Assembly (NCBI GenBank): GCA_000004985.1
Contig: GG739504.1
DNA length: 1,203 nucleotides
From: Naegleria gruberi
Taxonomy: Eukaryota
Direction: 5' to 3' (one strand)
In this document: one piece after another, positions 1 to 1,203 of the stretch
Layout: each line of letters begins with the position of its first letter
Position numbering within the stretch: position 1 is the stretch's first letter
The notes under the pieces: model-generated
Told to the model about the DNA's origin: nothing
Databases searched by the model: none
Seen by the model: the letters and a program-made list of their open reading frames with translations, nothing else
Made by a program: the position numbers and the translations under genes

Positions 1-11
1 AGGAATAGAAT

Positions 12-1178
12 TTAGGTAATTGGTTGGAATGATGACACAGGATTGTTTGTGTTATTAAGAAATAGAGACTGAATTTGTGAAGGACAATTATTGCAATTCC
101 AAACTTGTGAAATGGACTTGAAACCATAGAATAGATTACTAGTACTTGATCTTACTATGAGTGGCTGATTGAGTGTTAGTGGTGACAGGACTCTATTAAG
201 GGAACTTCCAGATGCTGTCGATAGAATAGAAATTGCACCCATTGCATTCACTTGTAACACCACATTACTTGGTATTAGATTCAATGTTGTTCCGTGCGTT
301 ATAGAATGATTGAAACCAAGATAAATTCTCAAGCCTTGAGAAGTGAAATCACAACTAACCATGGAAGAATCTCCAAAGGATAAAATATCATTTTGTGAGA
401 AGAAATCTTGACAATATTTGGTACTAGATGGTATGTATGCCAGTATTGGAGGATATGAAGCTGAAAGGATTGCATTAGGCCCATCCAAGTCAATTTGCAG
501 AAATTGACATTGGTTTCCTCTATATCCAAGTTTGCATTGGCAGTTGTTATAGGAAATACAATCACCAAAAGAGGAACAAACGGTGGTGTCATTTTGCAAT
601 TTTCCATAACAAACAGCAATATCGCAATTTGGGCCAGTATATCCTGTATTGCAGGAACATAAATTATAATTCGAACACTTTCCCCTTCCTGAACAAACAG
701 CAGATTCATTACTGGAATAATTGAAACATCTTGTGATCTCACAATTCTGGCCATACCATCCATTGAAACATTGGCAGATATCAGGTGAGATACATAACCC
801 ATTTGAGCTACAAATATTACTGTTGTTTGAGGCTACATCATTACAGATAGTATATTGGCAATTACTTCCAACATATCCTAAATTACATGAACATAAATTT
901 GGACCTACACAAGTTCCATTACCACAACCGAGCCCGAATAATGCATTTCCCACTGTGTTTTTAACACCTGCACACAAATATGATTGACACTCTGAGTCAA
1001 AATATCCTGCATTACAAGTACAATTATTAGAACTTAAACAGGCTCCTTTTCCAGAGCAAACGTTGGAAGATGCTGATGATTTTCCAAAGCATGCTGTAAT
1101 TTGACATTCAGTTCCAGTATACCCATTCGAGCATGAGCATGTGTTGGGGAGAGAGCAGTTTCCTCCACCTGAACACAC
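12..1178 (-). CDS. Extracellular-type cysteine-rich protein: one N-terminally truncated and five complete tandem EGF-like domains followed by a ~165-aa Cys-poor C-terminal domain; 5' end probably incomplete (no ATG; annotated start is GTG)
   Basis: 388-codon uninterrupted ORF ending in TAA at 12..14. Six-fold periodic Cys pattern C-x10(15)-C-x5-C-x5-C-x-C-x8-C with a conserved CxCxxG[YW]xGxxC motif, typical of EGF-like folds. Many N-x-S/T sequons (NCS, NGT, NNS, NYS, NES, NDT, NHS, NNT). In-frame TGA at 1185..1187 lies two codons upstream of the GTG at 1176..1178; no ATG anywhere at the N-terminus. Confidence 0.85.
   Translation of the reverse strand: MCSGGGNCSLPNTCSCSNGYTGTECQITACFGKSSASSNVCSGKGACLSSNNCTCNAGYFDSECQSYLCAGVKNTVGNALFGLGCGNGTCVGPNLCSCNLGYVGSNCQYTICNDVASNNSNICSSNGLCISPDICQCFNGWYGQNCEITRCFNYSSNESAVCSGRGKCSNYNLCSCNTGYTGPNCDIAVCYGKLQNDTTVCSSFGDCISYNNCQCKLGYRGNQCQFLQIDLDGPNAILSASYPPILAYIPSSTKYCQDFFSQNDILSFGDSSMVSCDFTSQGLRIYLGFNHSITHGTTLNLIPSNVVLQVNAMGAISILSTASGSSLNRVLSPLTLNQPLIVRSSTSNLFYGFKSISQVWNCNNCPSQIQSLFLNNTNNPVSSFQPIT
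15..506 (-). other. Cys-poor C-terminal domain of unknown family (aa ~225-388 of the ORF), beta-strand-like alternation, terminal W-N-C-N-N-C motif
   Basis: After the last EGF (C224) only 5 Cys occur in 164 residues. There are alternating hydrophobic/polar runs (LRIYLGF, VVLQVNAMGAISILST, LIVRSSTSNLFYGF) and a CNNC motif at nt 84..95. There is no hydrophobic C-terminal stretch, so no obvious TM or GPI signal. Confidence 0.5.
507..1175 (-). repeat. Tandem array of EGF-like domain coding units (period ~117-129 nt; repeats at protein level, DNA-level identity only moderate)
   Basis: Approximate plus-strand spans of the domains. EGF1 (partial, lacks C1) is 1104..1175. EGF2 is 987..1091. EGF3 is 858..974. 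EGF4 is 741..845. EGF5 is 624..728. EGF6 is 507..611. Complete units have 6 Cys with identical spacing; linkers between units are 4 aa (QITA, QSYL, QYTI, EITR, DIAV). The cbEGF consensus (D-x-D-E-C) is absent, so these are probably non-calcium-binding EGF. Confidence 0.75.
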
Positions 1179-1203
1179 ATTTGAATCATTAGAATATTTA
1201 CCA
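1169..1203 (-). other. Candidate intron 3' end / splice acceptor (pyrimidine-rich tract ...tattctaatgattcaaatgtgtgttCAG | GTGGAGGA) upstream of the truncated first EGF domain
   Basis: Minus-strand sequence 1203->1169 reads tggtaaatattctaatgattcaaatgtgtgttcag immediately before the Gly-Gly-Gly codons. It is more AT-rich than the ORF body, carries an in-frame TGA, and ends in YAG. EGF1 lacks its first Cys, which should lie ~11 codons upstream. Confidence 0.3.

What the first reader, a model, noticed from the sequence alone, without database searches (positions are those of the whole stretch)
1169..1203. Gene start is not where the ORF track puts it: GTG pseudo-start, in-frame stop 2 codons upstream, first EGF domain missing its C1
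The track's 'M' is a GTG codon (1176..1178). The frame reads TGA-TCA-AAT-GTG-TGT, so the ORF opens only 2 codons before GTG. A secreted Cys-rich EGF protein needs a signal peptide. The first EGF unit also begins at its second cysteine (C-x5-C-x5-C-x-C-x8-C), so ~11+ residues including C1 are missing. The sequence just 5' of the coding frame (minus strand) is T/A-rich and ends in CAG, consistent with an intron 3' splice site. This implies an upstream exon outside the window carrying the signal peptide and the first half of EGF1. Alternatives are a 5'-truncated pseudogene or fragment, or a genuine GTG start in a bacterium producing a non-secreted protein, which would be odd for this fold.
Basis: partly seen in the sequence, partly recalled or inferred. 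Interest (0 to 1): 0.5.

Follow-up and report, generated by a model that had tools for sequence, protein, structure and literature searches.

The report
Gene fragment cut by contig ends
The "odd gene start" is an artefact: the window is a whole 1.2-kb scrap of the Naegleria gruberi genome assembly holding the middle of a large cell-surface receptor gene, so the reading frame simply runs off the edge, with no stop codon, no intron and no GTG start.

Summary
The window is an entire 1203-nt Naegleria gruberi contig. Its only annotated product is XP_002667990.1, "predicted protein, partial". The GTG at 1178..1176, the CAG at 1171..1169 and the missing C1 of the first EGF unit are real. The key claim, an in-frame TGA two codons upstream, is a miscount: the sequence is tgaTTca, not tgatca. 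TGA 1188..1186 lies in another frame, and the coding frame stays open to base 1202. The nine residues read through the GTG (GKYSNDSNV) fit the conserved C1-C2 loop of this EGF type better than the window's own complete units do (16 bits; 0 of 100,000 shuffles reach it; 8/9 identical to a relative). C1 should lie two codons past the edge. There is no intron acceptor at 1169. Relatives are 1,759-2,807-aa Naegleria proteins: signal peptide, NHL repeats, EGF array, post-EGF domain, TM segment, kinase. The window aligns collinearly to their middle. So about 520-1,300 aa are probably missing upstream, not a small signal-peptide exon. The 3' end is also artefactual: the contig is one base short at 38..34, which creates the annotated stop at 14..12. 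After repair, homology continues to base 1. Verdict: ordinary contig-edge artefact, low interest.

The parts
39..1202 (-). Continuous coding frame (388 codons), open to the window's high-coordinate edge. It begins GKYSNDSNVCSGGGNCS... The deposited partial protein XP_002667990.1 (P0001) starts 12 codons in, at 1166..1164.
   Evidence: translation; position of P0001. (100% identity to 'predicted protein, partial [Naegleria gruberi]', longest contig 1203 nt).
1176..1178 (-). GTG encoding an internal valine, the residue immediately before C2 of the first EGF-like unit. It is not a start codon. The ORF track's 'M' is the first start-like codon met after the window edge.
   Evidence: V is the consensus residue at this position in relatives (consensus CYGIAANDSNVC).
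1186..1188 (-). The TGA that the finder read as in-frame. It lies in the frame starting at 1203, offset by one base from the coding frame, together with TAA 1191..1189 and TAA 1200..1198.
1169..1171 (-). CAG proposed as a 3' splice site. It spans codons TCA (Ser) and GGT (Gly) inside the conserved 'VCSG' motif. It is one of 26 YAG triplets on this strand and has no pyrimidine tract upstream (C+T fraction 0.53).
1104..1202 (-). EGF-like unit 1, cut by the contig end. The C1-C2 loop residues GKYSNDSNV and C2-C6 are present. C1 and the following F/Y would be encoded just beyond the edge, at 1208..1203. Base 1203 is T, which fits TTT or TAT as third position.
   Evidence: PSSM 15.98 bits; 8/9 identical to P0004 CFGKLSNDSNVC. 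(the G of P0008 'CQG', residue 771, aligns with codon 1202..1200).
504..1103 (-). Five complete six-cysteine teneurin-type EGF-like units: 1091..987, 974..858 (atypical long C1-C2 loop), 845..741, 728..624 and 611..507.
   Evidence: EGF_2 81.1 bits, EGF_TEN 72.9 bits against cut-off 65, EGF_Teneurin 67.2 bits..
39..503 (-). Post-EGF domain with no Pfam family. In paralogues it is conserved in the middle of giant Naegleria receptor-kinase-like proteins. In the alignment that starts at window residue 232 (A1) the invariant residues are C33, G46, C53, I62, L64, G65, W137 and P163.
   Evidence: E 1e-15 to 2.5e-9 to P0008-P0011.. (AF2 model confident only for the first ~90 aa).
34..38 (-). Frameshift site. 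The window has 5 bases (GTGTC) where paralogues have 6, so the contig is one base short and the frame moves from -2 to -1.
   Evidence: P0008 aa 771-1163 in frame -2 ending at 45; aa 1164-1178 in frame -1 from 45 to 1..
1..33 (-). Continuation of the coding sequence in the shifted frame (…IIPTNYLNSIP), open to base 1. It matches the paralogues' ...ILIPTSLLNSIP.
   Evidence: summed BLOSUM62 score 101 against four relatives; 0 of 100,000 shuffles and 0 of 1,935 other-frame 13-mers reach it.
12..14 (-). TAA used as the stop of the ORF and of the deposited model. It lies downstream of the frameshift and is probably not the real stop.

Best explanation
The window is a complete, tiny (1203-nt) scaffold of the Sanger-era Naegleria gruberi assembly. 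It carries an internal piece of one long minus-strand gene.

Shown: the coding frame is open from base 1202. The GTG at 1178..1176 is an ordinary valine codon inside the first EGF-like unit. An ORF lister reports it as the start only because it is the first ATG/GTG/TTG after the sequence edge. The first unit lacks C1 only because the contig ends two codons short of it.

Shown: the fragment holds the last six units of a teneurin-type EGF array plus a family-specific post-EGF domain. It aligns collinearly with the middle of Naegleria paralogues of 1,759-2,807 aa.

Inferred from those paralogues: the complete gene encodes a type-I membrane protein. Its layout would be signal peptide, NHL-repeat propeller, EGF array, post-EGF domain, about 900 aa of ectodomain, one TM segment and a cytoplasmic protein kinase. 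The real start would then be kilobases beyond the window.

Shown: the contig is one base short at 38..34, and this creates the annotated stop at 14..12. After repair the homology runs on to base 1, so the gene is cut at both ends.

Inferred: the missing base is more likely a base-calling error near the contig end (about 0.65) than a real mutation.
For:: the coding frame has no stop before the edge; TGA and both TAAs lie in another frame; the ORF call starts at the GTG; the window's product is 100% identical to XP_002667990.1/EFC35246.1 'predicted protein, partial [Naegleria gruberi]', whose longest contig is 1203 nt. (PMC9928731, Table 1): the N. gruberi assembly is Sanger-sequenced, in 1,977 scaffolds, at 35% GC; the window is 36.6% GC; the nine read-through residues score 15.98 bits on a C1-C2 loop profile built only from relatives, above all four complete units of the window (4.6-14.1 bits). 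None of 100,000 nucleotide shuffles, 1,962 other-frame 9-mers or 153 C-terminal 9-mers reaches that score. They are 8/9 identical to P0004; the best HSPs with P0008 (E 1e-97) and P0011 (E 3e-106) are collinear, and the P0008 HSP starts at the very first codon, 1202; architecture of the relatives, with N-terminal hydrophobic leaders and a single TM segment; frameshift and read-through at the 3' end; genomic DNA of two relatives shows the EGF array as an uninterrupted ORF.
Against: The sequence beyond either contig end could not be recovered: nothing turned up in metagenome contigs or prokaryotic genomes, and no longer version of the protein is in the 5.8-billion-protein collection. NHL repeats, TM segment and kinase are therefore inferred for this gene, not observed. 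A shorter relative, P0004 (347 aa), starts its EGF array with an almost identical unit directly after an N-terminal hydrophobic segment. A much shorter upstream part is therefore not excluded. The frameshift may be real, which would make this copy a pseudogene. No transcript data were available.
Confidence: 0.92

Rival explanations
1. An intron ends at CAG 1171..1169 and the exon starts at 1168. An upstream exon outside the window supplies Met, the signal peptide and the first half of EGF unit 1.
For: CAG is present at 1171..1169, and the 32 bases 5' of it are 75% A+T. The deposited model P0001 starts just after this CAG, at codon 1166..1164. Naegleria genes do contain introns (my own recollection of the N. 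gruberi genome paper, Fritz-Laylin et al. 2010; that paper could not be read here).
Against: The supposed intron tail encodes the missing half of EGF unit 1, in frame and contiguous with the exon, with a score no shuffle reaches. The in-frame stop that motivated the model does not exist. There is no pyrimidine tract, 26 YAG triplets occur on the strand, and 4.5% of coding 32-mers are equally A/T-rich. The EGF arrays of relatives in L001 and L002 are uninterrupted ORFs.
Confidence: 0.02
2. The contig carries a dead gene copy: a pseudogene or degenerate paralogue fragment. On this reading the one-base loss at 38..34 is a real mutation, and the copy may be truncated in the genome itself.
For: The frameshift and premature stop near the 3' end. 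The sequence sits on an unplaced 1.2-kb scaffold. The environmental relative L001 also shows frame breaks against its reference protein, so broken copies of this family may exist.
Against: The frame is open for 388 codons in 63% A+T DNA. By my estimate from base composition (not a tool result), random sequence of that composition would hit a stop about every 15 codons. All 35 cysteines of the EGF array are in place. The conserved residues of the post-EGF domain are intact. The single lesion lies about 35 nt from a contig end, where Sanger base-calling is poorest (general knowledge of Sanger reads).
Confidence: 0.2
3. A genuine GTG-initiated prokaryotic gene that encodes a non-secreted Cys-rich protein.
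For: Only the mechanical ORF call.
Against: There is no upstream in-frame stop. The sequence is a Naegleria gruberi record, and all relatives are from Naegleria or Naegleria-like eukaryotic contigs. There is no exact match in 185,579 prokaryotic genomes. The residues upstream of the GTG are homologous coding sequence.
Confidence: 0.005

Closest known systems
Naegleria gruberi NAEGRDRAFT_70916 (XP_002673894.1, 2807 aa) and NAEGRDRAFT_70317 (XP_002674574.1, 2271 aa). Also NAEGRDRAFT_80821 (XP_002673750.1, 1759 aa) and N. fowleri FDP41_013523 (XP_044565022.1, 2266 aa).
   Same: They align collinearly over the whole window at 34-39% identity (E 3e-106 and 1e-97 for the two best). They share the same teneurin-type six-Cys EGF units, the same atypical unit three positions before the end of the array, the same post-EGF domain, and the same '...N-K-x-x-I-I-I-P-S/T...' continuation.
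   Different: Those are full-length models with a signal peptide, NHL repeats, 5-13 EGF units, a long ectodomain, a TM segment and a protein kinase. The window holds only six EGF units and the post-EGF domain. At under 40% identity it is a separate family member, not an allele or a duplicate of any of them.
Metazoan teneurin EGF/NHL modules (Pfam PF25024 EGF_TEN, PF23106 EGF_Teneurin, PF25021 TEN_NHL)
   Same: The window scores above Pfam's cut-offs for EGF_TEN (72.9 bits against 65) and EGF_Teneurin (67.2 against 24.3). Its full-length paralogues also match TEN_NHL and NHL.
   Different: The resemblance is at domain level only. No other Pfam teneurin family was matched in the window or its relatives. 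The Naegleria proteins end in a cytoplasmic kinase, and they place NHL repeats before the EGF array.
XP_002667990.1 / EFC35246.1 'predicted protein, partial [Naegleria gruberi]' (the existing annotation of this very contig)
   Same: It is identical over residues 13-396 of the read-through translation and is already flagged as incomplete.
   Different: The deposited model starts 12 codons later than the open frame allows, at 1166 rather than 1202. It accepts the TAA at 14..12 as a true stop, whereas homology indicates a frameshift at 38..34 and a coding sequence that also runs off the low-coordinate end.

Membership tests
EGF-like domain array (Pfam EGF_2 PF07974; teneurin-type EGF PF25024/PF23106) | Profile score above the curated gathering cut-off | tested here: met
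   EGF_2 81.1 bits (cut-off 22.1), EGF_TEN 72.9 (65), EGF_Teneurin 67.2 (24.3).
EGF-like domain array (Pfam EGF_2 PF07974; teneurin-type EGF PF25024/PF23106) | Six conserved cysteines per unit with regular spacing | tested here: met
   five complete units with C1-x10(or longer)-C2-x5-C3-x5-C4-x-C5-x8-C6. Unit 1 has C2-C6 plus nine loop residues and is cut by the contig end.
Naegleria NHL-EGF-postEGF-TM-kinase receptor-like family (no curated name) | Post-EGF domain homologous to that of the full-length members | tested here: met
   exhaustive phmmer, E 9.6e-16 (P0008), 5.6e-13 (P0009), 3.7e-10 (P0010), 2.5e-9 (P0011); invariant C, G, C, I, L, G, W, P columns.
Naegleria NHL-EGF-postEGF-TM-kinase receptor-like family (no curated name) | Collinear order: EGF array, then post-EGF domain, then the 'IIP' continuation | tested here: met
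   single HSPs span window 1202..45 (P0008) and 1187..15 (P0011). After a one-base frame change the P0008 alignment continues to base 1.
Naegleria NHL-EGF-postEGF-TM-kinase receptor-like family (no curated name) | N-terminal signal peptide and NHL repeats upstream of the EGF array | not testable with these tools
   This region lies beyond base 1203, and the contig could not be extended.
Naegleria NHL-EGF-postEGF-TM-kinase receptor-like family (no curated name) | Single TM segment and cytoplasmic protein kinase domain downstream | not testable with these tools
   This region lies beyond base 1. The window fragment has no hydrophobic 19-mer.
Spliceosomal intron 3' splice site at 1169 | Sequence 5' of the AG is non-coding | tested here: not met
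   bases 1202..1176 encode GKYSNDSNV in frame, 15.98 bits on the C1-C2 loop profile built from relatives. None of 100,000 shuffles reaches that score.
Spliceosomal intron 3' splice site at 1169 | YAG preceded by a pyrimidine-rich tract, distinguishable from background | tested here: not met
   CAG is present, but the pyrimidine fraction of the preceding 15 nt is 0.53, within the range of the other 25 YAG sites on the coding strand (0.33-0.73).
Spliceosomal intron 3' splice site at 1169 | Spliced transcript across the junction | not testable with these tools
   No transcript data are accessible here.
Prokaryotic GTG-initiated ORF | In-frame stop upstream that bounds the ORF, and a prokaryotic source | tested here: not met
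   no in-frame stop; the record is from Naegleria gruberi; no match in prokaryotic genomes.

The most novel reading that the evidence does not exclude
The window is a fragment of a further, unassembled member of a Naegleria-restricted family of giant type-I receptor Ser/Thr kinases that the literature held here does not describe. The family combines an NHL propeller, a teneurin-type EGF array, a lineage-specific post-EGF domain and a juxtamembrane GPS-like 'C..THL[ST].FSV' motif. That would couple a possible GAIN/GPS-type autoproteolytic module to a kinase rather than to a 7TM or polycystin-type channel. Pfam GPS is the best hit at that motif in 3 of 3 relatives, but every score is below the cut-off. 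The motif lies outside the window.
Probability: 0.3. Interest if true: 0.4.

Novelty: already known. Interest (0 to 1): 0.06.

Why it matters
It matters mainly as a caution. An ORF lister applied to a sequence fragment reports the first ATG/GTG/TTG after the edge as a "start", and a one-base miscount turned that into an apparent stop codon and an intron. The public record already labels this protein partial, so nothing changes for biology. Two small corrections to the annotation follow. The coding region extends 12 codons further, to the contig edge. The annotated stop is probably the product of a one-base loss, so the model is incomplete at both ends. The gene family it belongs to is uncharacterised and may deserve a look of its own, but this window adds little to that.

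Tried and rejected
1. Extending the contig. An exact-product look-up of P0001 found no contig on record. A protein-guided scan and an exact 41-mer scan of the JGI metagenome contigs found nothing. An exact 32-mer scan of the prokaryotic genomes found nothing.

2. Fetching genomic DNA of the full-length N. gruberi paralogues P0008 and P0011 to look for introns. Neither is on record. L001 and L002 were used instead.

3. A word-indexed homologue search with the C-terminal 163 aa returned nothing, not even the self hit. That null is uninformative, and the exhaustive HMMER search replaced it.

4. The N. gruberi genome paper (Fritz-Laylin et al. 2010) is not held. Assembly statistics were taken from PMC9928731. 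No N. gruberi intron or splice-site statistics were obtained.

5. A literature search for a description of the NHL-EGF-kinase family returned only irrelevant abstract books.

6. Structure of the post-EGF domain. The AF2 model has mean pLDDT 64.5 and is confident only for about 90 residues. Foldseek against the PDB gave no hit with E below 0.1, only vague Ig-like resemblance. No fold is assigned.

7. Rfam and tandem-repeat scans of the window were empty. The composition profile shows nothing that sets off the 5' end.

8. My hand-typed frameshift repair contained one residue too many (NNPVXVIIP). The correct one-base repair is NNPVVIIP, which is gap-free against the relatives.
Full report
WHAT THE SEQUENCE SHOWS. 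On the minus strand the window begins tggtaaatattctaatgattcaaatgtgtgttcaggtgga.... Translating the three minus-strand frames gives the following. The long coding frame starts at base 1202 and reads GGT AAA TAT TCT AAT GAT TCA AAT GTG TGT TCA GGT = G K Y S N D S N V C S G. It has no stop codon before the window edge. The three stop triplets in the first 60 bases are TAA 1200..1198, TAA 1191..1189 and TGA 1188..1186. All three lie in the frame that starts at 1203. The finder's 'TGA-TCA-AAT-GTG-TGT' needs 'tgatca', but the sequence is 'tgaTTca', so one T was dropped and two frames were spliced together. The central observation, an in-frame stop two codons upstream of the GTG, is therefore wrong. 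The GTG (1178..1176), the CAG (1171..1169) and the C2-C6 pattern of the first EGF unit are present as described. The mechanical ORF lister does report 12..1178 with a GTG start. That is simply the first ATG/GTG/TTG after the sequence edge.

WHERE THE WINDOW COMES FROM. The read-through translation is 100% identical to XP_002667990.1/EFC35246.1, 'predicted protein, partial [Naegleria gruberi]'. The longest contig carrying that protein is 1203 nt, so the window is the whole record. The deposited model starts at codon 1166..1164, 12 codons inside the open frame, and ends at the TAA at 14..12. The N. gruberi assembly is Sanger-based, 40.9 Mbp, 35% GC and in 1,977 scaffolds (PMC9928731 Table 1). 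The window is 36.6% GC. This is a eukaryotic nuclear gene on a scrap scaffold, which excludes the bacterial-GTG alternative.

IS 1169-1203 EXON OR INTRON? I built a position-specific profile of the C1-to-C2 segment from 23 canonical EGF units of the relatives P0002-P0007 only, leaving the window out. The nine residues encoded by 1202..1176 (GKYSNDSNV) were then scored against profile columns 3-11. They score 15.98 bits. The window's own four complete units score 4.6-14.1 bits. No control reaches the observed score: 100,000 nucleotide shuffles (maximum 10.3), 1,962 nine-mers from the five other frames (maximum 5.2) and 153 nine-mers from the non-EGF part of the same protein. The closest relative unit is CFGKLSNDSNVC of P0004, identical at 8 of 9 positions. 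In the best alignment with the paralogue P0008, the G of its 'C-Q-G' (residue 771) pairs with the very first codon of the window. So C1 is expected two codons beyond the edge. Base 1203 (T) fits the third position of TTT or TAT, for the F/Y that follows C1.

The splice-site cues are weak. The 32 bases are 75% A+T, but 4.5% of coding 32-mers in this ORF are at least that rich. The pyrimidine fraction before the CAG is 0.53. There are 26 YAG triplets on the coding strand. In the two relatives whose genomic DNA I could fetch, the EGF array is one uninterrupted ORF: L001 positions 195-1490 cover P0013 residues 107-538, and L002 positions 3001-4044 encode P0004. I conclude there is no intron at 1169. 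The frame simply runs off the contig.

WHAT THE GENE IS. Pfam places six teneurin-type EGF-like units in residues 1-233: EGF_2 81 bits, EGF_TEN 72.9 bits against a cut-off of 65, EGF_Teneurin 67 bits. The remaining ~160 residues match no Pfam family. An exhaustive HMMER search of 1.84 billion representatives found only five relatives besides the self hit. All are from Naegleria or Naegleria-like environmental contigs: N. gruberi NAEGRDRAFT_70317 (2271 aa), NAEGRDRAFT_70916 (2807 aa) and NAEGRDRAFT_80821 (1759 aa), and N. fowleri FDP41_013523 (2266 aa). Most of them share one architecture: an N-terminal hydrophobic leader (clear in two of the four), NHL repeats, 5-13 EGF units, the post-EGF domain, roughly 900 further ectodomain residues, a single strongly hydrophobic TM segment and a protein kinase domain.

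The window aligns collinearly with the middle of these proteins. P0008 residues 771-1163 align to window 1202..45 (E 1e-97). P0011 residues 1307-1690 align to 1187..15 (E 3e-106). P0010 residues 520-919 align to 1193..36. An atypical EGF unit with a long C1-C2 loop sits three units before the end of the array in the window, in P0008 and in P0011 alike. By collinearity, about 520-1,300 residues are expected upstream of the window: a signal peptide, NHL repeats and 2-7 more EGF units. This step is inference. A short relative, P0004 (347 aa), begins its array with a nearly identical unit right after a hydrophobic segment, so a shorter N-terminal part cannot be excluded.

THE OTHER END IS ALSO ARTEFACTUAL. 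The P0008 alignment does not stop at the annotated C-terminus. Residues 1164-1178 continue directly, in frame -1, from window 45 to base 1. Against four relatives, the shifted-frame peptide CVIIPTNYLNSIP gives a summed BLOSUM62 score of 101. None of 100,000 shuffles and none of 1,935 other-frame 13-mers reaches that score, and 8 of 13 residues are identical to P0008 MILIPTSLLNSIP. At the DNA level the paralogue copy in L001 reads AAC AAA CCG ATC GTT ATC ATT CCA. The window reads AAC AAT CCT GTGTC ATC ATT CCA, which has five bases where six are expected, at + coordinates 38..34. Inserting one base there gives ...LFLNNTNNPVVIIPTNYLNSIP, which is gap-free against ...YLTNYENKSMILIPTSLLNSIP. The TAA at 14..12 therefore follows a frameshift and is probably not the real stop. 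The gene runs off both ends of the contig. The lesion lies about 35 nt from the end of a small Sanger contig, and the other 388 codons are intact, including all 35 cysteines of the array. I therefore consider a base-calling error more likely than a true pseudogene mutation, at roughly 0.65 to 0.3. Only the reads can decide.

COMPARISON WITH KNOWN THINGS, AND NOVELTY. At domain level the fragment is an ordinary member of the EGF_2/teneurin-type EGF families. At gene level it is a new but fragmentary paralogue, less than 40% identical to any other member, of an uncharacterised Naegleria family. Databases list that family only as 'predicted protein' or 'non-specific serine/threonine protein kinase'. 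The held literature does not describe it. The specific finding, a displaced gene start with a stop and an intron, is not a biological feature. The public record already marks the protein as partial.

SIDE WORK THAT LED NOWHERE OR STAYED INCONCLUSIVE. The contig could not be extended. DNA of the full-length paralogues is not on record. An AF2 model of the post-EGF domain is confident only for its first ~90 residues, and Foldseek against the PDB gave nothing significant. The full-length relatives carry a 'C..THL[ST].FSV' motif about 45 residues before the TM segment. Pfam GPS is the top hit there in three of three, but the scores (18.6, 14.0 and 12.6 bits) are below the 22.5-bit cut-off, and there is no PDB sequence hit. 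Rfam and tandem-repeat scans of the window were empty.

VERDICT. Interest is low.

Noticed in passing
window 34-38 and 1-33 (minus strand); stop at 12-14: The contig is one base short in GTGTC relative to paralogues, which shifts the frame. The annotated TAA stop follows the shift. After repair, homology (…VVIIPTNYLNSIP) continues to base 1. The deposited protein is therefore probably incomplete at its C-terminus too.
   Followed up: yes
window 39-503 (minus strand): A ~160-aa post-EGF domain with no Pfam family. It has only five relatives besides itself among 1.84 billion representative proteins, all from Naegleria or Naegleria-like contigs. The AF2 model is confident only for the first ~90 residues, and no significant PDB fold match was found.
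   Followed up: partly
relatives P0008 aa 1976-1986, P0011 aa 2501-2511, P0014 aa 1868-1878 (not in the window): A 'C..THL[ST].FSV' motif lies about 45 aa before the single TM segment of these receptor-kinase-like proteins. Pfam GPS (PF01825) is the best hit in 3 of 3, but the scores are below the cut-off (18.6/12.6/14.0 against 22.5 bits). To my knowledge (from memory, not checked here) a GPS-like module next to a kinase would be an unusual combination.
   Followed up: partly
window 858-974 (minus strand): The third EGF unit has an atypically long, glycine-rich C1-C2 loop (CAGVKNTVGNALFGLGC). An equivalent odd unit occupies the same position, three units before the end of the array, in P0008 (CVGEQYIGKNLC) and P0011 (CAGEKFIGQNLC). 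It is a useful marker of positional homology.
   Followed up: partly
L001 195-199 and 1483-1490: This environmental contig (ENA ERZ929261) is a 97-98% identical copy of N. gruberi NAEGRDRAFT_80821. It shows two frame breaks against the reference protein, one at a T5 run and one just after the 'IIPS' motif. These could be assembly errors, strain indels, or gene-model patches in the reference.
   Followed up: no
L002 6855-7044 (runs off the locus): On the Logan contig, a gene near the EGF protein P0004 encodes a 1408-aa product with weak GPS and RGS Pfam hits.
   Followed up: no
tool behaviour: The word-indexed homologue search with the C-terminal 163 aa did not return even the identical protein P0001. 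A 'no hits' result from that tool on this low-complexity, N/S-rich segment is therefore not evidence of absence. The exhaustive HMMER search did find relatives.
   Followed up: yes
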